Source: Chloroflexota bacterium (GTDB lineage Bacteria; Chloroflexota; Anaerolineae; UBA1429). From it: DNA of 64,000 bases. The DNA lies in the NCBI GenBank assembly GCA_034722245.1, contig JAYENT010000019.1, positions 10,425-74,424 on the forward strand. Direction: 5' to 3'. How positions within the stretch are numbered: the stretch's first letter is position 1; each line of letters starts with the position of its first letter. This document shows, piece by piece, positions 29,644-38,891 of the stretch. The translations under genes and the position numbers were made by a program. The notes under the pieces are model-generated. The model did no database searches, was not told the origin of the DNA, and worked only from the letters and a program-made list of their open reading frames with translations.

Positions 29644-29958
29644 ATGCAGACCAAGAGCGACATCGAACGAGGGAACGGTCAAGGCCAGTACAAGCAGCGC
29701 TACCCCTTCGGAAGTAGAACATATATTATGTCTTCTACAGCTATTGCTACGATGATAAAGATCATGGAGTCTTTGCCCGAAAGCGCACAAGAGCGAGTCG
29801 TCGACCATCTGCGGGAGTACATTGAGGAACTGCGAGACGAGATAAAATGGGATATCCATTTCGAGGAAACACGGGAGCAACTTGAGGACGCTGCAAGATG
29901 CGCCAAGCGAAAAATCGCTGAGGGACAGGCGAAACCGCTGGATTACGAGCAACTGTGA
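29644..29958 (+). CDS. Small hypothetical protein, antitoxin-like (possible shorter start at an internal Met); its stop overlaps the start of the next ORF as GTGA
   Basis: A TTGCCC-17-TAGAAT promoter-like pair at about 29593-29621. Charged helical sequence ESLPESAQERVVDHLREYIEELRDE. 4-nt GTGA coupling to ORF 29955. Confidence 0.35.
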   Translation: MQTKSDIERGNGQGQYKQRYPFGSRTYIMSSTAIATMIKIMESLPESAQERVVDHLREYIEELRDEIKWDIHFEETREQLEDAARCAKRKIAEGQAKPLDYEQL

Positions 29959-30359
29959 AGTCTGCAGTACTCCCTTCTTTTTGGGCTGCGTACAGGTCTC
30001 TTGACGAGGATATCAAGTGCAGAGCCAGGGAAGCCTACCGCTTGTGGGCGAGAGAGCTTGAGAAAACCGCTCTCAATGGTTCATGCCTTTCCCCAGTTCC
30101 ACGACGCGCCCCGTGTATTCGTGCCCAGGCACAACGGGTGGATTGGCGGCGAACTGCCTGTGATAGGCGTGACGGTACATACCACAGATGCCGCAAGCCA
30201 GCACCTCCCAGAATACCTTCTCTTCCCAAACCTGGGAGATTGCCCGTTTCTCGATACGCAGATTCCCCGGCCCATAGAAGGCACCGCTTTCCTCTCATCC
30301 TCCCCTATACCACCGACATGATGCTTGAAAGCTACCTGTCCACACCTTGCCTACCATAG
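29955..30359 (+). CDS. GTGA-coupled downstream ORF: the first ~40 aa look protein-like, the rest is Arg/Pro-rich low-complexity; probably a truncated or degraded toxin partner
   Basis: GTG start. VKSAVLPSFWAAYRSLDEDIKCRAREAYRLWARELEKTAL, then garbage-like sequence. Confidence 0.15.
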   Translation: MKSAVLPSFWAAYRSLDEDIKCRAREAYRLWARELEKTALNGSCLSPVPRRAPCIRAQAQRVDWRRTACDRRDGTYHRCRKPAPPRIPSLPKPGRLPVSRYADSPAHRRHRFPLILPYTTDMMLESYLSTPCLP

Positions 30360-30415
30360 CAGGTGCGGCGGCCATGCCGAACTGCGCGCGCCCTCAAATT
30401 CCCGCCATCTGCATT

Positions 30416-30443
30416 TTGACGCACATCAAGGCGGTGGTATAAT
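30416..30443 (+). promoter_or_regulatory. Sigma-70-like promoter TTGACG-16-TATAAT in front of the ECF/CoA operon leader
   Basis: TTGACG 30416-30421 and TATAAT 30438-30443. Confidence 0.45.
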
Positions 30444-30560
30444 GCAGTATGCAGGTGACCCACCGTGGGCACCGAGCGATTCTTCTTTGACAAATCGTCG
30501 CTTGGATCAGCGTCTGACCGAGACGACGGAAGAGCACGTCACTATTCATCTTCCGTATGG

Positions 30561-30592
30561 CCTTGCGTCCCGAAGACGCAAGGTCTTTTTTT
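30561..30592 (+). terminator. Perfect intrinsic terminator inside the leader, 11 nt upstream of the ecfA1 start codon (attenuator or sRNA terminator)
   Basis: CCTTGCGTC-ccgaa-GACGCAAGG followed by TCTTTTTTT. Confidence 0.55.
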
Positions 30593-30603
30593 GTGGAGTC
30601 CAC

Positions 30604-31464
30604 ATGACATCGGATCCGCTTATACGCGCTGTCGATGTACATTATACATATGACGAAGGTTCTCATACCGTGGAGGCTTTGCGCGGGGTCGATCTCTGCA
30701 TCGACGAGGGCGACTTTGTGGCCCTCGTGGGGCACAATGGCTCCGGCAAGTCCACCCTTGCCAAGTGCCTCAACGCCCTACTGCTCCCCACCCAAGGGGA
30801 CGTGTGGGTCAAGGGCCAAAATACGCGCCATTGCTCGGAGAGCGCCCTGCTGGAGATTCGCGCCACCGTGGGTATGGTCTTTCAGCATCCCGAGAACCAG
30901 TTCGTGGCCACCACCGTGCGGGAGGAGGTGGCCTTTGGGCCCGAGAATCTGGGCGTCCCCGAACCAGAACTGCATCGGCGGGTTGAATGCGCTTTGCAGG
31001 ACGTGGGGCTGGAGAGCGTCAAGGGCCGGAATCCGCACGACCTATCGACCGGCCAAAAGTCTCGTCTGGCCATAGCAGGCATACTGGCCATGGAACCGGA
31101 ATGCCTGATACTGGATGAGTCTACGGCCATGCTGGACCCCATCGCACGGCGCAACGTGCTGGCCCTGTTGGACGATCTACATCGTCGGGGGCTGACCCTC
31201 ATCCTCATCACCCACTCCATGGAGGAAGCCGTCCTGGCGGACCGTATCGTCGTTCTGGACGAGGGACGCGTGGCCCTGGAAGGCAGCCCATCAAGGGTTT
31301 TCGCAGATCACGCGGTCTTTGATGACTTGGGACTAGATTTGACCGTCAGCGCCGCCATAGCGCGGGGATTGCAGCATCGCGGCCTGGACCTTTCAGGAGA
31401 GACCATCCTGACACAGGACGACCTCGTAAATGCATTGGCCAAATTCGCGAGGGTCAGAACATGA
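30604..31464 (+). CDS. ecfA1: ECF transporter ATPase component A1
   Basis: Start at ATG 30604 (MTSDPLIRAV); the upstream part of track ORF 30325 is non-coding leader. Walker A GHNGSGKST, LSTGQ signature, and the EcfA C-terminal helix. Confidence 0.9.
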   Translation: MTSDPLIRAVDVHYTYDEGSHTVEALRGVDLCIDEGDFVALVGHNGSGKSTLAKCLNALLLPTQGDVWVKGQNTRHCSESALLEIRATVGMVFQHPENQFVATTVREEVAFGPENLGVPEPELHRRVECALQDVGLESVKGRNPHDLSTGQKSRLAIAGILAMEPECLILDESTAMLDPIARRNVLALLDDLHRRGLTLILITHSMEEAVLADRIVVLDEGRVALEGSPSRVFADHAVFDDLGLDLTVSAAIARGLQHRGLDLSGETILTQDDLVNALAKFARVRT

Positions 31465-32324
31465 GCGACATCATCGTCCGCGTTCAAGGCCTCTCATACA
31501 CCTACATGGCCGGCACGCCACTGGCCGCTATGGGCCTCCAGGATGCGACCCTCACCTTGCGACAAGGGGAATTCGCCGCCCTGATCGGAGCGGGTGGCTC
31601 TGGCAAGTCCACATTGGTCAGCTTCCTCAACGGCCTTTTGCGGCCCCGACAGGAGGGACAGGTGGTAGTCTTTGGACAGGACACGGCAAGCCCGACCTGT
31701 GACATCATCTCCTTGCGTCGCTACGTGGGGCTTGTCTTCCAGTATCCCCATCACCAATTCTTGGAGCAGCACGTGGGCGATGACATCGCCCATGGCCCAC
31801 GGCAGCTGGGCCTCTCAAGAGAGGAAATCCGTGAGCGCGTGCGCTGGGCCATGGAAGCCGTAGGGCTCGATTTTCAGGACTTTGTGGATCGGCGCACCTT
31901 TTCCCTCAGCGGCGGCGAGATGCGCCGCGTGGCGCTGGCGGGCGTTCTGGCTATGAAACCCGACTTGCTGGTGCTGGACGAGGCGACCACGGGACTTGAC
32001 CCGCGAGGCCGGGCCCAGATTCACGAGGTGCTGCACCGCCTTCGGGCCGACAGGGGAATGACCATCCTTCTTGTTTCCAATGACATGGACGAGGTAGCCG
32101 AGCTAGCGGACCGGGTCACCGTGCTCCACGAGGGCAAAACCGTCCTTGCAGGTCCCACACGCGAGATTCTTGGGAAAGAAACCGGCCTGGAAGGCTATGG
32201 GCTGGCACCTCCCATCACGACACGCGTGCTGCACGCCCTGCGCCAGGCCGATGTGCCGATAGCGGGCACACCATTAACGAGAGCGGAGGTGGAGGAGGCC
32301 ATATGGCAAGCTATGAGGCCCTGA
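31461..32324 (+). CDS. ecfA2: ECF transporter ATPase component A2
   Basis: ATGA overlap with ecfA1; GAGGSGKST; LSGGE. Confidence 0.9.
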   Translation: MSDIIVRVQGLSYTYMAGTPLAAMGLQDATLTLRQGEFAALIGAGGSGKSTLVSFLNGLLRPRQEGQVVVFGQDTASPTCDIISLRRYVGLVFQYPHHQFLEQHVGDDIAHGPRQLGLSREEIRERVRWAMEAVGLDFQDFVDRRTFSLSGGEMRRVALAGVLAMKPDLLVLDEATTGLDPRGRAQIHEVLHRLRADRGMTILLVSNDMDEVAELADRVTVLHEGKTVLAGPTREILGKETGLEGYGLAPPITTRVLHALRQADVPIAGTPLTRAEVEEAIWQAMRP

Positions 32325-33145
32325 GACACGTCACCATCGGTCGCTACATCCCGGGTGACACCCCGATACATCGGCTGGATCCCAGAGCTAAACTCTTCGC
32401 CTTCGCCACGCTGATCGGTCTGGTGCTGGTGGCAACGTCCTATGCCAGCAGCGTCCTTCTCCTGGGCCTTGTGTTGTCCTGCGTGTTGATGGCTCAACTT
32501 CCCATTGGCTACCTCCTCTCCAACATCAGACCGGCCCTTCCCGCCATCGCCATACTCAGTCTTTTGCAACTTCTCTTCTATCGTGCGGAGCCCGGAGCCC
32601 CTCTCCTCCTCGCCTGGGGCAAACTGCATATCTCATTCGTCGCCGTGCGTGTGGTCATCGTCTCCCTGATACGCTTCCTCGTTCTGACGTTCCTCATCAG
32701 CCTGCTGACGAATACCACGACCACAAGTTCCTTGACCAACGGCCTCGAGAGCCTACTACGCCCCCTGAGCCGGTTGGGTCTGCCCGGACACGAGATCGCC
32801 CTCGTGGGAGCGGTGGCCTTGCGTTTCGTTCCCATCCTGGGAGAGGAACTGGAATCGATTGCCAAAGCACAGGATGCACGCAGCGTCGACGACAGAATCG
32901 GCGGCAGGTGGCAATTCGTTCACAATGCGAGGCGTGTGGCGGCCCTCATCGTACCCCTCTTTGTCGACGCTTATCGGCGGGCCGAGGAGATGATCCTGGC
33001 CATGCGCGCGCGCTGCTATCACGGCGGCGAGGGGCGTACCCACCTCGTCACCCTTACCTTCTCATCGCGAGATTATGTTGCACTCGGGCTGATGGGCCTT
33101 TCCATTATTCTTGTTTTGACCGTTCAACAACTATCCCTACCCTAG
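32303..33145 (+). CDS. ecfT: ECF transporter transmembrane (T) component
   Basis: The coupling-helix Ala-Arg-Gly-like motifs of the CbiQ/EcfT family (ARSVDDR, ARCYHG). Confidence 0.9.
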   Translation: MASYEALRHVTIGRYIPGDTPIHRLDPRAKLFAFATLIGLVLVATSYASSVLLLGLVLSCVLMAQLPIGYLLSNIRPALPAIAILSLLQLLFYRAEPGAPLLLAWGKLHISFVAVRVVIVSLIRFLVLTFLISLLTNTTTTSSLTNGLESLLRPLSRLGLPGHEIALVGAVALRFVPILGEELESIAKAQDARSVDDRIGGRWQFVHNARRVAALIVPLFVDAYRRAEEMILAMRARCYHGGEGRTHLVTLTFSSRDYVALGLMGLSIILVLTVQQLSLP

Positions 33146-33155
33146 AAGGAGAGCT

Positions 33156-33860
33156 ATGATATCCAACGAACGCGGTATTCGACGTATTGTCATCGCTGGC
33201 CTGCTGCTGGCCATCACCCTACTTCTCGTATTCACCCGCATCGGCATGATTCCCATGCCAACGCCCGCGGCCAATGCGACTATAGCCCATATTCCGGCCA
33301 TCATTGGCGGTATCCTGGAAGGGCCCATCGTCGGGCTGCTCATTGGTATGGGCTTTGGGTTCGCAAGCTTTATGAGCGCCACGATTCCTATGTTCAAGGA
33401 CCCCATAGTGGCCATATTGCCTCGTCTCATGATAGGCGTTACAGCCAGTTGGGTCTTTATCCTTCTTCGAGCGGCCACAAGACGAACCTTGTCCATCATG
33501 ATAGGCATCTTATGCGTGTTGATGCTGACCTTTAGCTATCAAACGTATCAGACCATCGCCTGGTTGGGCATCGTGGTGGCCATCGTCGCGGTGGGCGCCA
33601 CCGCATGGCTCTATTGGTGGATGCGCCGCACCGACGTACAAATCGTGGGTCTCAGCATGGCCGCGGCCGTGGGCTCCCTGACAAACACCGTGCTCGTCCT
33701 TTCCGCCGCCGTCTGGCGCGATTATATCCCCTTCGAAGCCGCCTGGGGCATCGGCTTGACCCACGGCATTCCAGAGGCCGTCGTCTCAGCCATCGTTACC
33801 GTAGCCATCGTCTCCGCTCTACGCCACATCGGCGAAGGATGGAGCGATTCGCAGCTGTAG
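33156..33860 (+). CDS. ECF transporter S component, probably pantothenate-specific (PanT-like) given coaX/coaBC immediately downstream
   Basis: 6-TM small integral protein of the ECF S-component type. RBS GAAGGAG. Genomic context. Confidence 0.75.
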   Translation: MISNERGIRRIVIAGLLLAITLLLVFTRIGMIPMPTPAANATIAHIPAIIGGILEGPIVGLLIGMGFGFASFMSATIPMFKDPIVAILPRLMIGVTASWVFILLRAATRRTLSIMIGILCVLMLTFSYQTYQTIAWLGIVVAIVAVGATAWLYWWMRRTDVQIVGLSMAAAVGSLTNTVLVLSAAVWRDYIPFEAAWGIGLTHGIPEAVVSAIVTVAIVSALRHIGEGWSDSQL

Positions 33861-33882: not shown

Positions 33883-34662
33883 ATGCTGCTCTGCGTCGAT
33901 ATCGGTAATACGAACATCGTTATGGGCCTCTATGAGGGGAACAACCTCCTGAACCACTGGCGCGTAAGCACCGATCACAACAAAATGCCGGACGAATACG
34001 GTATGCTTTTTATCGACCTTTTGCGTCATGACGCCCTGGTCACCGAGGATATCGACGGCATCGTCCTGGCAAGCGTCGTTCCCCCTGTCACCGAGATATT
34101 TACAGAGATGTTGGAAAACTATGTGGGGGGGGAAATCCTCATCGTGGGCAGCGGCATCAGAACGGGCGTTGCCATACGCTATGACAACCCCCAGGAGGTG
34201 GGCGCCGATCGCGTCGTCAACGCCATAGCCACGTATCGCCACTACGGAGGGCCTGCATGTGTAATCGACTTTGGCACCGGTACCACCTTTGATGCCATCT
34301 CCACAAAGGGCGAATACCTGGGGGGTGCCATCGCCCCCGGTATTCGCATTGCCGCCGAGGCCCTTTTTCAGCGGACGGCCAAGCTGCCGCGCATTGATCT
34401 CATCCCTCCTGCAAAAACCATAGGCACCAATACAGCGGACTCGATGCGCTCCGGCATCCTCTACGGATATGTGGGGTTAGTGGAGGGCATGGTGGCACGG
34501 TTTCGACAGACGTTGGGGCCCGACATGCGCGTCATCGCCACGGGGGGATTTGCATCCATCATCGGCAGTGAGACGAAGGTGATCGAGCACGTCGATCCGT
34601 GGCTCACGCTCAAGGGCCTGCGCATCATCTACGACCTGAACAGGGAAAGAAAAAGAATATGA
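33883..34662 (+). CDS. coaX: Type III pantothenate kinase
   Basis: MLLCVDIGNTNIVMGL, DRVVNA, GTGTTFD. Confidence 0.9.
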   Translation: MLLCVDIGNTNIVMGLYEGNNLLNHWRVSTDHNKMPDEYGMLFIDLLRHDALVTEDIDGIVLASVVPPVTEIFTEMLENYVGGEILIVGSGIRTGVAIRYDNPQEVGADRVVNAIATYRHYGGPACVIDFGTGTTFDAISTKGEYLGGAIAPGIRIAAEALFQRTAKLPRIDLIPPAKTIGTNTADSMRSGILYGYVGLVEGMVARFRQTLGPDMRVIATGGFASIIGSETKVIEHVDPWLTLKGLRIIYDLNRERKRI

Positions 34663-35876
34663 TACTAGAGAACAAGAATGTGGTGTTGGGCGTTACAGGG
34701 GGCATCGCCGCCTACAAGGCCGTGGACGTGTGCAGCAAGCTGGTCCAAGCAGAAGCCGTTGTGGACGTCATCATGACCCAGGCGGCCACGCACTTTATCA
34801 CCCCTCTATCCTTTCAGACCATCAGTAAGCGTCCCGTGGCAGTGGATATGTTCAAGCTGCTTCAAGAGGCGGATATGGCTCACATCTCGTTGGCGAAGAA
34901 GGCCGACGTTCTGCTCATCGCGCCCGCGACGGCTAACACCATCGCCAAGCTTGCTCATGGGCTGGCGGATAATCTGCTCACGAGCACAGCCTTGGCCACC
35001 ACAGCGCCACTAGTGATCGCGCCTGCCATGGACGCCGACATGTGGCAGAACGAGGCAACGCAACGGAACGTGCATCTATTGCGCGAGAGGGGCGCCACCT
35101 TTGTCGGGCCAGGCCATGGGCGACTGGCCTCCGGGCGCATGGGCACAGGGCGTCTCATGGGGACTCAGGACATCGTCGCTGCCCTGCGCAAGACGCTGGG
35201 ACGCCACGGTCCGCTGGCGGGCGCGCACGTGACGGTGACCGCAGGGGGCACGCAGGAGCCCTTGGATCCGGTACGCCATCTTGGGAACCGCTCCTCTGGA
35301 CGTATGGGGTATGCTTTGGCGGAGGCTGCGCGCGACTATGGTGCCTCAGTCAAACTGATCAGTGCTCCCACCTGCCTCGGAGATCCCTACGGCGTCGAGA
35401 GTTTGCATGTAAGAACAGCAGCCGAGATGCGCGATAGCGTCCTGGAGGCCTTTGAAGAAACCGACATCCTGATCATGGCCGCTGCCGTTGCTGACTATCG
35501 CCCCAAGTCGGCAGCCGAGAAAAAGATAAAGAAAGAGGGCGGCGACCTACTCCTTCCACTGGAGCGCACCGAGGACATCCTGGCCGCCGTGGGTGAGAGA
35601 CGAAGCGAGAGCGATGGGAAAACGGTCGTGGGTTTCGCCGCCGAGACGGAGGATTTGCTGGAGAACGCCCGCGCTAAGCTGCGACATAAGAACCTCGACC
35701 TCATCGCAGCCAACGACGTCTCCGCCTCGGACAGCGGTTTTGCTACAGAGACCAACCGCGTCACCCTGCTCACCTCGGACGGACGGACCAAAGCCCTTCC
35801 CCTCATGAATAAGTTTCAAGTAGCGGAGCATATCCTCGATTTCGTCGTCGAGATGAGGAGGCAGCATGACGAGTGA
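34659..35876 (+). CDS. coaBC: Bifunctional phosphopantothenoylcysteine decarboxylase / phosphopantothenate--cysteine ligase
   Basis: ATGA overlap with coaX. Flavoprotein domain (GVTGGIAAYK, PAMDADMW) plus the DFP/CoaB domain (SSGRMG). Confidence 0.9.
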   Translation: MILENKNVVLGVTGGIAAYKAVDVCSKLVQAEAVVDVIMTQAATHFITPLSFQTISKRPVAVDMFKLLQEADMAHISLAKKADVLLIAPATANTIAKLAHGLADNLLTSTALATTAPLVIAPAMDADMWQNEATQRNVHLLRERGATFVGPGHGRLASGRMGTGRLMGTQDIVAALRKTLGRHGPLAGAHVTVTAGGTQEPLDPVRHLGNRSSGRMGYALAEAARDYGASVKLISAPTCLGDPYGVESLHVRTAAEMRDSVLEAFEETDILIMAAAVADYRPKSAAEKKIKKEGGDLLLPLERTEDILAAVGERRSESDGKTVVGFAAETEDLLENARAKLRHKNLDLIAANDVSASDSGFATETNRVTLLTSDGRTKALPLMNKFQVAEHILDFVVEMRRQHDE

Positions 35877-36852
35877 ACTGTTCGAGGGATCCCTCACCGA
35901 CGTGCGCGGGTTGAAGGTAGGACACGCCACGGATAGCGAGGCGCTGACGGGCTGTACCGTCGTGCTATGCGGCAGGGGCGTCGCTGCCGGCGGTGTCGTG
36001 CGCGGGTTGGCACCTGGCACGCGGGAGACGGCCCTCCTGCGCCCAGGAACTCTCGTACAAGAGGCCCACGGCATACTGCTTACCGGAGGAAGCGCCTTTG
36101 GCCTGGCCGCCGCAGACGGTGTGATGCGCTACCTGGAAGAACAAGGCGTGGGGTACGACGCTGGCGTAAAGGTGCCCATCGTGCCGGGCGCCGTGCTGTT
36201 CGATCTGGACTTGGGCGAGGCTTCCGCGCGTCCCGACGCGCATATGGGATATGAAGCGTGCCAAAGCGCGTCCAGCAAAGCAACGGCTCAGGGCAACGTG
36301 GGGGCCGGCACCGGCGCCACCGTCGGAAAACTGATGGGCATCGAGAGGGCCACGAAGAGTGGCCTAGGCATGGCCAGCCTCAAGGCCGGGCGCCTCGTGG
36401 TGGCAAGCCTTGCCGTGGTGAACGCCTTTGGCGACGTAATAGATCCCGCAAGCGGAGAGATCATCGCCGGTGCCCGCAGCACCAGGGGCGACACGTTTAT
36501 CGACACTTCGCGCGCGCTGCAGGATCGCGCCACACGTACCGTCATGGCTTTCAAGAATACCGTCATCGGTGTGGTGGCCACCAACGCGCGGCTGGACGAT
36601 GCCCATATCAACCACCTGGCCGCGGCGGCCCACGATGGTCTGGCGCGCACCATCCGTCCCGTGCACACTCTGTACGACGGGGATACCTTTTTCTCCTTGG
36701 CGACGGGCCATATACGAGCACACCATACCTTGGTTACCGATATGGCCGCCACGGCCACCGCGCGTGCCATCCTCAACGCCGTATGGTCGGCGGAGGAAGC
36801 GGCCGGCTTGCCCTCTGCGGCGCTCGGGAATCACATACCGTATGAGGCTTGA
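35866..36852 (+). CDS. Peptidase family S58 / DmpA (L-aminopeptidase / beta-aminopeptidase-like, Ntn hydrolase)
   Basis: DmpA/ArgJ-like fold with a GAGTGAT self-cleavage-type motif; overlaps the coaBC 3' end by 11 nt. Confidence 0.8.
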   Translation: MTSELFEGSLTDVRGLKVGHATDSEALTGCTVVLCGRGVAAGGVVRGLAPGTRETALLRPGTLVQEAHGILLTGGSAFGLAAADGVMRYLEEQGVGYDAGVKVPIVPGAVLFDLDLGEASARPDAHMGYEACQSASSKATAQGNVGAGTGATVGKLMGIERATKSGLGMASLKAGRLVVASLAVVNAFGDVIDPASGEIIAGARSTRGDTFIDTSRALQDRATRTVMAFKNTVIGVVATNARLDDAHINHLAAAAHDGLARTIRPVHTLYDGDTFFSLATGHIRAHHTLVTDMAATATARAILNAVWSAEEAAGLPSAALGNHIPYEA

Positions 36853-37382: not shown

Positions 37383-37436
37383 AGTTACGAAAAAGTTGCG
37401 AAAACTATTGACGCGGGACGATATTAGGAGTATAAT
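37383..37436 (+). promoter_or_regulatory. rpoD promoter: tandem 11-bp repeats AGTTACGAAAA / AGTTGCGAAAA immediately upstream of TTGACG-17-TATAAT
   Basis: Repeats 37383-37404; TTGACG 37408-37413; TATAAT 37431-37436. About 250-nt leader to the rpoD ATG. Confidence 0.45.
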
Positions 37437-37691
37437 AAGAGTATAGATCACAGAGGCTAACGTGAGGTTATAGATGCGAGATCCCTCGACTGCCGAGCTC
37501 GGTAGCGGTCCTCCTTGAAGCATGAGGACAGGCGACCGAGCGTTTTTGCTTTTGGGCAAACTCGACGGTCGAAGGGGTTCCTTTTTGTCAGACAAGAGAA
37601 AGGAGGGATGTCCGAAAGGTTGCTTAGCGCTTCTGGCCAACAGAACCGTTTTCAGTCTACAAGCCTATGTAAAATGGGGAGACCAACGAAT

Positions 37692-38891
37692 ATGTTGGAA
37701 AATCTACTAGAGAATGCAAAGGCGCAGGGCTATGTTACCGGTGACAAATTGTTGGAACTCTACCCCGAAGTAGAAACATGTATCCCGCAGATCGATGCGC
37801 TGTTCGCAAAGCTCATCGACGAGGGCATTGAGATTATGTTAGACACTTCCGAACCCTCCTACGATTTACCCGGCTTCTCTCTTCTTGAGGAAGAGGAAGA
37901 TCAAGAGGATATCGAGGATGATGAAGACGTAGATGGCAAAGACATTCTTGACGACACGGAAGAATACGTGGACGTGGATGGTATAGCGGTGGATGATGCC
38001 GTCAGTCTGTACTTTAGACAAATGGGATCCGTACCCTTACTCGAAAAGTCGGAAGAGGTGACGTTGGCGCGCCAGATCGAGGAGGGACAACAAGCCATCG
38101 CAAAGCTGGCCGAAGAGGACACTTCCCCTGAGGAAGAGAAGGAGCTACGCAGGATTGTCGATAGGGGAAACAAAGCCCGTAAGAAGCTCACCGAGGCGAA
38201 CACGCGCTTGGTGGTCAGCATAGCAAAAAAGTATACGGGAAACGGCGTCCCCCTCCTCGACCTGATACAGGAGGGAAACATCGGCCTCATGAAAGCGGTG
38301 GAAAAGTTCGACTACCACCGGGGCTACAAATTCAGCACCTATGCTACATGGTGGATCCGTCAGGGAATAACCAGGGCCCTCGCACAGCAGAGCAGACTCA
38401 TTCGTATCCCCGTGCACGCTGGGGACCAGATCCGCCGCATTTATCGTACCATCGAGAACTGTGAAAAGGAAACGGGAGAGCGCCCGACAAAAGAGGAAAT
38501 CTCTGAAAGAACGGGAATAAGTGTGAGCAAGATCGAACTGCTCATGAGGAGTTCTCGCTATCCCATCTCCTTGGAGATGCCCGTGGGAGAGGATGACGAT
38601 TCCGAATTCGGCGATTTTATCGAGGATGATGACTCCCTCACCCCCACCGAGATTGCGTATCAGCATCTCTTGCGCGAGGCGCTGCAGAACATCATGACTT
38701 CGCTCAGTCCTCGAGAAGCACGCGTTCTTCGCCTCCGTTTCGGACTTCGGGACGGGCACGCACACACGCTGGAGGAAGTAGGACAGAAGTTCGGCCTCAC
38801 GAGGGAACGCATTCGCCAGATCGAGCACGAGGCCCTGGATAGACTGCGGCGCCCATACCGCCGCAGACAACTGACAGACTATCTCAGGTAG
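37692..38891 (+). CDS. rpoD: Primary RNA polymerase sigma factor (sigma-70 / SigA)
   Basis: Start at ATG 37692 with RBS GGGGAG. Acidic region 1.1; region 2 ([31 protein letters not shown]); region 4 ([19 protein letters not shown]). Confidence 0.9.

What the first reader, a model, noticed from the sequence alone, without database searches (positions are those of the whole stretch)
30416..30603. Promoter plus structured leader ending in a perfect intrinsic terminator right before the ECF-pantothenate/CoA operon
TTGACG-16-TATAAT (30416-30443) is followed by a ~150-nt untranslated segment. It contains an imperfect hairpin at 30454-30473, a 7-bp helix CGGAAGA...TCTTCCG, and then the terminator CCTTGCGTC-ccgaa-GACGCAAGG-TCTTTTTTT (30561-30592). 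The terminator lies only 11 nt before the ecfA1 ATG and overlaps its GGAG RBS region. This architecture fits a transcription-attenuation element (riboswitch, T-box-like or protein-mediated) or an independent ~140-nt sRNA. No riboswitch class for pantothenate or CoA is known, so a metabolite-sensing leader on an ECF-PanT-coaX-coaBC operon would be new. The putative antiterminator could use TCTTCCGTATGGCCTTGCG to pair with the terminator 5' arm.
Basis: partly seen in the sequence, partly recalled or inferred. Interest (0 to 1): 0.55.

Follow-up and report, generated by a model that had tools for sequence, protein, structure and literature searches.

The report
Pan-motif attenuator before a pantothenate/CoA operon
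The structured leader is a copy of the already described but still unexplained "pan" RNA motif, followed by a transcription terminator; here it controls a vitamin B5 uptake and early coenzyme A synthesis operon rather than the B5 synthesis genes it was known from.

Summary
A near-consensus promoter (30416-30443) sits 6 nt before a 143-nt structured RNA that ends in a strong intrinsic terminator (30559-30592), 11 nt before ecfA1.

The RNA is not a new class. Positions 30450-30530 match Rfam RF01749, the "pan motif" of Weinberg et al. 2010: two tandem hairpins, each with two bulged A residues. The match scores 33.6 bits (E 3.6e-4), just under the family cut-off of 36.2.

The same layout (promoter, hairpin 1, hairpin 2, terminator, ecfA1) occurs in all 31 Chloroflexota relatives that have upstream DNA. 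Hairpin 1 covaries; hairpin 2 is almost invariant.

In metagenomes the same hairpin 2 precedes panB/panC/panD operons, S58 peptidase genes and ECF-coaX-coaBC operons.

In 90 pan leaders the 3' strand of hairpin 2 plus its tail is complementary to the terminator's 5' arm. This is a candidate antiterminator, so a closed hairpin 2 would mean termination. In this window that pairing is weak.

The effector (protein or metabolite) is unknown. Putting coaX and coaBC in the regulon argues that the signal arises after CoaBC.

Verdict: a new member of a known orphan motif, in a gene context I did not find described.

The parts
30416..30443 (+). Sigma-70-type promoter: -35 TTGACG (30416-30421), 16-nt spacer with extended -10 TG (30435-30436), -10 TATAAT (30438-30443). 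The predicted transcription start is about 30449-30451.
   Evidence: 11/12 matches, TG present; 30 of 32 homologous leaders have at least 8/12 matches, with the -10 hexamer ending 5-7 nt before hairpin 1.
30450..30478 (+). Pan motif hairpin 1 (H1): UGC-AGGUG-A-CCCA-CCG-UGGG-CACCG-A-GCG. The bulged A residues are A30458 and A30475. There is one A-G mismatch (A30453/G30474).
   Evidence: Rfam RF01749 alignment. Compensatory changes occur at 7 of 10 pairs in 25 relatives and at 9 of 10 pairs in 62 distinct sequences.
30479..30497 (+). Linker between the two hairpins (AUUCUUCUUUGACAAAUCG). It contains the ACAA element that most relatives share just 5' of H2.
   Evidence: Alignment A3.
30498..30526 (+). 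Pan motif hairpin 2 (H2): UCG-CUUGG-A-UCA-GCGUC-UGA-CCGAG-A-CGA. The bulged A residues are A30506 and A30523. There are no mismatches.
   Evidence: 9 of 11 pairs are invariant in 25 relatives that were chosen through the S-component protein, not through the RNA. The few divergent relatives show compensatory changes.
30527..30556 (+). Hairpin P3: 7-bp helix CGGAAGA/UCUUCCG with a 15-nt loop. It abuts H2, and its 5' strand is shared with the candidate antiterminator.
   Evidence: -8.4 kcal/mol. It is kept in the closest relatives L001-L003. More distant relatives have other hairpins or none at this place.
30525..30569 (+). Candidate antiterminator: G30525-C30535 (GACGGAAGAGC) pairs with G30560-C30569 (GCCUUGCGUC). 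This gives 9 bp with two interruptions. It is mutually exclusive with the outer pairs of H2, with P3, and with the terminator.
   Evidence: -12.7 kcal/mol; z = -0.9 and -1.8 against shuffles of slightly different terminator stretches. It is weak in this window. At family level it is supported: 90 leaders, mean z = -1.9 against +0.2 for a control segment, Wilcoxon p = 4e-14.
30559..30592 (+). Intrinsic terminator: 11-bp stem (5' arm 30559-30569, loop 30570-30574, 3' arm 30575-30585) followed by T7 (30586-30592).
   Evidence: -18.1 kcal/mol. A hairpin plus T-run is present at the same place in all 27 relatives examined, with differing stem sequences.
30595..30606 (+). Ribosome binding site GGAG (30595-30598) and the ecfA1 start codon ATG (30604-30606).
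   Evidence: The start is conserved in L001-L003.
30604..33145 (+). Energy-coupling module of an ECF transporter: ecfA1 (30604-31464), ecfA2 (31461-32324) and ecfT (32303-33145).
   Evidence: Pfam ABC_tran and CbiQ. NCBIfam ECF_ATPase_1 and ECF_ATPase_2.
33156..33860 (+). ECF substrate-specific (S) component, probably for pantothenate or a related precursor.
   Evidence: Pfam ECF_trnsprt. No NCBIfam match. The best solved-structure match is the S chain of 4RFS, E = 1e-4; that 4RFS is the Lactobacillus brevis pantothenate transporter is from my own knowledge.
33883..35876 (+). coaX (type III pantothenate kinase, 33883-34662) and coaBC (34599-35876).
35866..36852 (+). Last gene of the operon: an S58 (DmpA/ThnT-like) self-processing hydrolase.
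   Evidence: Pfam Peptidase_S58. Solved-structure matches include ThnT at E about 1e-45. Gene order is conserved.

Best explanation
The leader is a pan-motif RNA (Rfam RF01749 type) joined to an intrinsic terminator. Together they form a transcription attenuator for the operon ecfA1-ecfA2-ecfT-S-coaX-coaBC-S58.

Transcription starts about 6 nt after the -10 box, so hairpin H1 is the 5' end of the mRNA. H1 and H2 are the sensor. The 3' strand of H2 and the purine-rich tail after it can instead pair with the 5' arm of the terminator, forming an antiterminator.

When an effector that reports sufficiency of the pantothenate/CoA pathway holds H2 closed (with P3 stacked on it in this window), the antiterminator cannot form. 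The terminator then folds and a transcript of about 143 nt is released, so the operon is OFF. Without the effector, the base of H2 opens, the antiterminator forms and the operon is read through.

Shown here: identity with the pan motif; conservation and covariation of the hairpins; conservation of the promoter and terminator; the regulon; and complementarity between the H2 3' strand plus tail and the terminator at family level.

Inferred: the direction of regulation and the nature of the effector. My lean is a trans-acting, probably dimeric, RNA-binding protein rather than a directly bound metabolite. Because coaX and coaBC are in the regulon, I infer that the signal is a product at or after 4'-phosphopantetheine (for example CoA) and not pantothenate itself.
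For: - Rfam pan match at 30450-30530 covers the whole model: 33.6 bits, E = 3.6e-4.
- The sequence is nearly the same as the Dehalococcoides rows of the published seed alignment.
- A clade-specific covariance model scores the window at 76.8 bits. It finds one element at the same place in all 31 Chloroflexota relatives that have upstream DNA.
- 96% of cells are paired, against at most 46% when partners are slid. H1 has 7 of 10 and 9 of 10 pairs with compensatory changes.
- The terminator is present in 27 of 27 leaders examined.
- The promoter is conserved in position in 30 of 32 leaders.
- The operon order is conserved, while the upstream genes are not.
- The same H2 sequence precedes panB-panC(-panD), DUF2520-panD-panB-panC, S58-led operons and ECF-S-coaX-coaBC operons in metagenomes.
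- Antiterminator complementarity in 90 leaders: mean -14 kcal/mol and mean z = -1.9, against +0.2 for a control segment, p = 4e-14.
- Pan leaders without a terminator have the start codon 5-6 nt after H2, so the ribosome binding site lies in the same H2 3' strand. This gives the same direction: H2 closed means OFF.
- The motif's authors judged the tandem simple hairpins suggestive of a dimeric protein site.
Against: - The Rfam score is below the family's gathering cut-off (33.6 against 36.2). Only 1 of 9 relatives scanned passes it.
- In this window the antiterminator is weak: 9 interrupted bp, -12.7 kcal/mol, z about -1 to -2.
- The minimum-energy fold keeps H1, H2, P3 and the terminator together at every transcript length that includes the terminator's 3' arm. 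Thermodynamically the default state is OFF, and an ON-type effector is not excluded.
- The leaders are phylogenetically related, so the p-value overstates independence.
- No effector is known, and no candidate regulator gene is conserved in the regulated operons.
- There are no experimental data for any Chloroflexota pan RNA.
Confidence: 0.7

Rival explanations
1. Direct riboswitch. The tandem pan hairpins themselves bind a small molecule of the CoA pathway (4'-phosphopantetheine, dephospho-CoA, CoA or an acyl-CoA). Binding closes H2 and causes termination, with no protein needed.
For: - The core of H2 is nearly invariant even at paired positions, and it includes a conserved U-G wobble and bulged A residues.
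- The motif occurs in several phyla with interchangeable expression platforms, either a terminator or ribosome-binding-site occlusion.
- No regulator gene is conserved in about 140 regulated operons.
- From my own knowledge: other tandem simple hairpins, such as the NAD+-I (nadA) and guanidine-II motifs, proved to be riboswitches.
- A CoA riboswitch is described as expected but missing.
Against: [quoted passage not shown] I found no ligand report in the main text or in the supplement passages returned by my searches.
- They favoured a protein-binding motif.
- No later paper in the searchable library assigns a ligand.
- The hairpins offer little obvious pocket-forming complexity.
Confidence: 0.3
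2. ON-type control. The terminator is the default state, and an effector present when CoA or pantothenate is scarce binds the pan hairpins and promotes antitermination.
For: The minimum-energy structures of the window leader keep H1, H2, P3 and the terminator together. No strong competing fold appears. H2 forms before the terminator is transcribed.
Against: - The element complementary to the terminator's 5' arm is the H2 3' strand itself. Stabilising H2 should therefore favour termination, not prevent it.
- In leaders without a terminator, the ribosome binding site lies inside H2, which points the same way.
Confidence: 0.15
3. An independent small RNA of about 140 nt, made from its own promoter and ended by the terminator, that acts in trans. 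Its position before ecfA1 would be incidental.
For: A strong promoter and a strong terminator bracket 143 nt. The terminated species must exist whenever attenuation occurs.
Against: - In every one of 31 relatives the element lies directly upstream of ecfA1 on the same strand. The ribosome binding site follows within about 10-30 nt, and no second promoter is evident.
- The same motif always precedes pantothenate-related genes, as expected of a cis-regulator.
Confidence: 0.05
4. The hairpin plus T-run is simply the terminator of the upstream transcript (29644-30359), and the TTGACG/TATAAT pair is a chance match.
For: Consensus promoter and terminator matches are no more frequent than in shuffled sequence in this 10-kb region.
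Against: - The upstream ORFs have no Pfam or NCBIfam family and are shared with only one relative.
- The promoter, pan motif and terminator are nevertheless conserved as one block with ecfA1 in 31 relatives with different upstream genes.
- The terminator lies 200 nt past the upstream stop codon, beyond the promoter.
Confidence: 0.03

Closest known systems
pan motif (Rfam RF01749; Weinberg et al. 2010, Genome Biol 11:R31, PMC2864571)
   Same: - Two tandem hairpins, each a stem interrupted by two conserved bulged A residues.
- The same conserved nucleotides around the bulges: GAYC on the 5' side and GA on the 3' side.
- A purine-rich tail after hairpin 2.
- Occurrence in Chloroflexi.
- Position in the 5' UTR of pantothenate-pathway genes.
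- The window sequence is almost superimposable on the Dehalococcoides seed rows.
   Different: - The score is just under Rfam's cut-off (33.6 against 36.2 bits).
- The regulated operon is an ECF transporter with coaX, coaBC and an S58 hydrolase, not the panB, panC or aspartate decarboxylase operons named in the paper.
- An explicit terminator/antiterminator platform is documented here.
Terminator-type OFF riboswitches and attenuators in general (from my own knowledge)
   Same: A sensor helix whose 3' strand can alternatively pair with the terminator's 5' arm. A promoter-proximal position. A terminated short transcript in the OFF state.
   Different: No ligand or binding factor is known. The sensor is two simple bulged hairpins rather than a multi-helix junction. 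In this window the antiterminator is weak.
PyrR-dependent pyr attenuators of Bacillus (from my own knowledge)
   Same: A protein-bound hairpin (the anti-antiterminator) that prevents an antiterminator, so that a downstream terminator forms. This gives end-product feedback on a biosynthetic operon.
   Different: There is no sequence or structural similarity to the PyrR binding loop. No protein has been identified for pan RNAs.
NAD+-I (nadA motif) and guanidine-II (mini-ykkC) riboswitches (from my own knowledge)
   Same: Tandem, similar, simple stem-loops that looked protein-like but bind small molecules.
   Different: They have different conserved nucleotides, and their ligands are validated. 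For pan, none of the tested compounds has been reported to bind.

Membership tests
pan motif (RF01749) | [quoted passage not shown] | tested here: met
   H2 (30498-30526) is perfect, with A30506 and A30523 bulged. H1 (30450-30478) has A30458 and A30475 bulged and one A-G mismatch.
pan motif (RF01749) | Two such hairpins in tandem, separated by a linker (most members). | tested here: met
   H1, a 19-nt linker and H2. The match covers the full model, positions 1-92.
pan motif (RF01749) | Covariance-model score at or above Rfam's gathering score of 36.2 bits. | tested here: not met
   The window scores 33.6 bits, E = 3.6e-4, in a 401-nt search and gives no hit at the gathering threshold. Of 9 relatives scanned, only L009 passes, at 36.9 bits. 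This cut-off is operational rather than a biological feature. A model built from this clade scores the window at 76.8 bits.
pan motif (RF01749) | Helices supported by compensatory base changes. | tested here: met
   96% of cells paired against at most 46% when slid; H1 has 7 of 10 pairs with changes on both sides; 9 of 10. H2 varies little, but it changes compensatorily in L012, L015, L016 and L030.
pan motif (RF01749) | Located in the 5' UTR of pantothenate-related operons. | tested here: met
   It lies between the promoter and ecfA1 of an ECF-S-coaX-coaBC operon. The identical H2 sequence precedes panB, panC and panD operons in metagenomes. The ECF/coaX/coaBC context itself is not among those named in the paper.
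Intrinsic-terminator attenuator | A G+C-rich hairpin followed directly by a U-run, lying between the promoter and the start codon on the coding strand. | tested here: met
   Conserved in 27 of 27 relatives examined.
Intrinsic-terminator attenuator | An alternative antiterminator pairing that excludes the terminator and is coupled to the sensor. | tested here: inconclusive
   Window: 30525-30535 with 30560-30569, -12.7 kcal/mol, z = -1.8. This is not the minimum-energy state. Family level: significant in 90 leaders.
Intrinsic-terminator attenuator | Condition-dependent ratio of terminated to read-through transcripts. | not testable with these tools
   Needs term-seq, Northern blots or in vitro transcription.
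Metabolite-binding riboswitch | Direct, selective binding of a small molecule by the RNA. | not testable with these tools
   The only information is published: pantothenate, CoA and beta-alanine at 1 mM are listed as tested on a Geobacter pan RNA, and the passages I read report no ligand.
T-box leader | A match to the T-box model. | tested here: not met
   No T-box match at E up to 10 in 30300-30700.
ECF pantothenate S component (PanT) | Sequence membership in a characterised pantothenate S-component family. | tested here: inconclusive
   Only the generic Pfam ECF_trnsprt family matches, and there is no NCBIfam model. The best solved structure is the S chain of 4RFS, E = 1e-4 over residues 10-102. 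The assignment rests mainly on context (coaX, coaBC, pan motif).

The most novel reading that the evidence does not exclude
The pan motif is the long-sought riboswitch of the coenzyme A pathway. Because this clade places coaX and coaBC (which consume pantothenate) under the same OFF-type element as the pantothenate synthesis genes, the ligand would be a metabolite at or after 4'-phosphopantetheine. CoA has already been tried on a Geobacter pan RNA, so the untried intermediates (4'-phosphopantetheine, dephospho-CoA, acyl-CoAs) are the first to test. The tandem Chloroflexota RNA with its terminator would be a better test construct than the Geobacter RNA probed in 2010.
Probability: 0.25. Interest if true: 0.85.

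Novelty: new member of a known kind. Interest (0 to 1): 0.42.

Why it matters
The pan motif has been an orphan since 2010, and a 2022 review calls the absence of any CoA-sensing RNA puzzling.

This locus and its 31 relatives add three usable facts:
- The regulon includes uptake (ECF-S), an S58 hydrolase, and the first CoA-specific enzymes (CoaX, CoaBC), not only panBCD. That narrows the likely signal to a late pathway product.
- The expression platforms, whether a terminator or an occluded ribosome binding site, all use the 3' strand of hairpin 2. This gives a testable direction: hairpin 2 closed means OFF.
- Rfam's threshold misses nearly the whole Anaerolineae clade, so annotation pipelines under-report the motif.

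None of this makes the element a new class. It makes an old open question easier to test.

Tried and rejected
- Whole-window Rfam scan at gathering thresholds found nothing. The pan hit appeared only in the E-value scan of 30300-30700.
- The two other weak Rfam hits in that scan (SBWMV2 pseudoknot, SpF59) are chance matches to the T-run and the terminator.
- A MAFFT alignment of 16 published seed sequences with the window (A2) misaligned hairpin 1. I did not use it. I built the model from the Chloroflexota leaders instead (A3, R1).
- My first antiterminator test used only the H2 3' strand plus 3 nt. It gave weak results for the panB, panC and ECF classes. Including the purine-rich tail gave the consistent signal.
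- I looked for pan motifs in Bacillota homologues of the transporter operon and found none, either with R1 or at the Rfam gathering threshold.
- I looked in the 2010 supplements for gene contexts with coaX or coaBC and found none in the files held.
- Literature searches found no functional or ligand assignment for pan RNAs, and no description of pan control of ECF or CoA genes.
- I saw no leader peptide. The only ORF overlapping the leader (30465-30653) runs out of frame into ecfA1.

Full report
**What is in the sequence**

- The promoter is TTGACG, a 16-nt spacer and TATAAT, 11 of 12 matches, with an extended -10 TG.
- It is followed by a hairpin, H1, at 30450-30478.
- A second, perfect hairpin, H2, lies at 30498-30526.
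- The 7-bp helix CGGAAGA/UCUUCCG (P3) is at 30527-30556.
- The terminator has an 11-bp stem with seven G-C pairs (30559-30585) and a run of seven T (30586-30592).
- GGAG is at 30595-30598 and the ecfA1 ATG at 30604. The ribosome binding site is next to the terminator but not inside it.
- As RNA, 30448-30595 folds at -58.4 kcal/mol. That is 4.5 SD better than dinucleotide shuffles, and none of 200 shuffles folds as well.

**What it is**

A scan of the whole window against Rfam at curated thresholds found nothing. A permissive scan of 30300-30700 matched RF01749, the pan motif, over the full model at 30450-30530. The score was 33.6 bits, E = 3.6e-4, against a family cut-off of 36.2.

The pan motif was described by Weinberg et al. 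2010 (PMC2864571). [quoted passage not shown] The authors thought the simple dimeric arrangement suggested a dimeric protein-binding site. [quoted passage not shown]

The window's two hairpins have exactly this architecture. They are almost superimposable on the Dehalococcoides rows of the published seed alignment: UGCCACCGACC...GGCGGUGAGC ... CCGCUUGGAUCG...CGGCCGAGACGG.

**Gene context**

Downstream lie:
- ecfA1, ecfA2 and ecfT;
- an ECF S component;
- coaX, a type III pantothenate kinase;
- coaBC;
- an S58 peptidase-family protein.

The S component has only the generic Pfam family and no NCBIfam model. Its best solved-structure match is the S chain of 4RFS at E = 1e-4; that 4RFS is the Lactobacillus brevis pantothenate ECF transporter is from my own knowledge. 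Calling it "PanT" is therefore a reasonable inference from context, not a demonstrated membership.

**Relatives**

The window's S component is identical to a protein of a Chloroflexota metagenome-assembled genome. A scan of one genome per species with an alignment of S-component homologues returned 80 loci: 32 Chloroflexota/Anaerolineae and 48 Bacillota.

In the Chloroflexota the order ecfA1-ecfA2-ecfT-S-coaX-coaBC-S58 is conserved. The two ORFs upstream of the window's leader recur in only one locus.

A simple pattern for H2 found it at the same distance upstream of the S gene in 26 of these loci. Each copy is preceded by an H1-like hairpin and a promoter-like site, and followed by a G+C-rich hairpin with a T-run and then the ecfA1 start.

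A covariance model built from 25 of these leaders (A3, R1) found one element in every Chloroflexota locus that has upstream DNA. That is 31 relatives, four of them weak (20-37 bits). The model found one element in the window (76.8 bits) and none in the Bacillota loci.

Only one of nine relatives scanned reaches Rfam's cut-off (L009, 36.9 bits). This clade therefore sits at the edge of what Rfam annotates.

**Structure support**

On the 25-sequence alignment, 96% of cells form standard pairs, against at most 46% when the partners are slid by 1-3 columns. Seven of ten H1 pairs show changes on both sides. With 62 distinct sequences, including metagenomic ones, nine of ten do.

H2 behaves differently. 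Nine of its eleven pairs never vary in the protein-selected set. Where H2 does vary (L012, L015, L016, L030), the changes are compensatory. The near-invariance of H2, including a U-G wobble, points to sequence-specific recognition or a second pairing role.

**Promoter and terminator**

In 30 of 32 leaders a sigma-70-type promoter with at least 8 of 12 matches ends its -10 hexamer 5-7 nt before H1. The motif is therefore the 5' end of the transcript.

All 27 pattern-found leaders have a terminator hairpin with differing stem sequences.

The terminator does not belong to the upstream transcript, the promoter is conserved, and homologous operons do share the leader.

**Regulon**

A metagenome scan for the exact H2 sequence returned 120 contigs. 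The first downstream ORFs cluster as follows:

| First ORF after the motif | Contigs |
|---|---|
| Rossmann/DUF2520 protein | 35 |
| PanB | 26 |
| S58 | 11 |
| PanC | 8 |
| PanD | 5 |
| EcfA | 5 |

The operon architectures are panB-panC(-panD), DUF2520-panD-panB-panC, S58-DUF2520-panD-panB-panC and ecfA1-ecfA2-ecfT-S-coaX-coaBC-S58, plus one contig with coaX directly after the motif.

The motif thus controls de novo synthesis, uptake, an S58 hydrolase and the first CoA-specific steps. The main text of the 2010 paper names only panB, panC and aspartate decarboxylase. I found no paper describing the ECF/coaX/coaBC context or any effector. A 2022 review states that no CoA riboswitch is known.

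**Mechanism**

In many leaders the top of the terminator's 5' arm is complementary to the 3' strand of H2. Examples are CGUCUCG with CGAGACG, and UCUCGGUC with GACCGAGA. The CCUUC at the base of that arm is complementary to the purine-rich tail (GRAGG) after H2.

I tested this in 90 leaders that have terminators. The duplex between the H2 3' strand plus tail and the terminator 5' arm plus loop averages -14 kcal/mol, with mean z = -1.9 against shuffles. An equally long control segment upstream of H2 averages z = +0.2. The paired Wilcoxon p is 4e-14, but the sequences are related, so this overstates independence.

Pan leaders without a terminator place the start codon 5-6 nt after H2, so the ribosome binding site lies in the same strand. 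Both platform types therefore give the same logic: H2 closed means OFF.

In this window the pairing is G30525-C30535 with G30560-C30569. It has nine interrupted base pairs at -12.7 kcal/mol, z about -1 to -2. It competes with the outer pairs of H2, with P3 and with the terminator.

The minimum-energy folds of the window keep H1, H2, P3 and the terminator together. The window alone would not establish an antiterminator, and an ON-type effector is not excluded.

**Effector**

Nothing here identifies the effector. No regulator gene is conserved in the regulated operons. The simple tandem hairpins, and the fact that the passages I read name no ligand for the compounds tried in 2010, favour a protein.

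On the other side, the invariant H2 core, the interchangeable platforms and (from my own knowledge) the precedent of other tandem-hairpin riboswitches keep a direct metabolite sensor alive. I put that at about 0.25-0.3.

Repressing coaX and coaBC when pantothenate is plentiful would make little sense. The regulon therefore argues for a signal at or after 4'-phosphopantetheine. This is inference.

**Verdict**

The interpretation as an attenuator is supported. The claim of a new class is not: this is a sub-threshold member of the known orphan pan motif, in a gene context I did not find described, with a documented terminator platform. Interest is moderate.

Noticed in passing
window 35866-36852; L001-L080 downstream of the S gene; L084, L097, L101, L107, L114, L128, L138, L154, L180, L190: The S58 (DmpA/ThnT-like) hydrolase is part of the pan regulon in two contexts. 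It is the last gene of the ECF operons in Chloroflexota, and it sits directly after the S gene in Bacillota operons that lack coaX and coaBC. It is also the first gene of S58-DUF2520-panD-panB-panC operons in metagenomes. It matches ThnT at E about 1e-45; ThnT cleaves the pantetheinyl amide in thienamycin synthesis (PMC6097109). It may be a bacterial pantetheine or beta-alanyl amide hydrolase that feeds pantothenate salvage.
   Followed up: partly
L088-L196 (for example L104:1642-2505): A Rossmann-like/DUF2520 protein is the most frequent first gene after pan motifs (35 contigs), usually in DUF2520-panD-panB-panC operons. It is a candidate ketopantoate reductase substitute. I did not test this.
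   Followed up: partly
L005, L010, L013, L018, L021, L028, L031, L038 and the window: Rfam's gathering score for the pan family misses almost the whole Anaerolineae clade. Only 1 of 10 leaders tested reaches 36.2 bits, although a clade model scores them at 50-82 bits.
   Followed up: yes
window 37408-37436 and 37437-37607: A second near-consensus promoter (TTGACG-17-TATAAT, 11/12) lies about 170 nt upstream of an RpoD-like sigma-70 gene at 37608-38891, which has regions 1.1 to 4. The long leader has no Rfam match at E up to 1.
   Followed up: partly
window 29644-30359 (+) and 30035-30298 (-): The two overlapping ORFs upstream of the leader have no Pfam or NCBIfam family and recur in only one relative, L003. 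An 87-aa ORF lies antisense within the second one. Whether these are real genes is unclear.
   Followed up: no
L033-L080 (Bacillota): Neobacillus, Brevibacillus and related genomes carry ecfA1-ecfA2-ecfT-S-S58 operons whose S component is 40-46% identical to the window's. They have no coaX or coaBC. No pan motif was found with R1 in any of these loci, nor at the Rfam gathering threshold in the nine scanned. Their regulation is unknown.
   Followed up: partly
L018 16477-16595; L066 14081-14267; L041 5076-5121 (-): Unrelated riboswitches turned up in the fetched flanks: Moco, cobalamin and PreQ1, all above the Rfam gathering scores.
   Followed up: no
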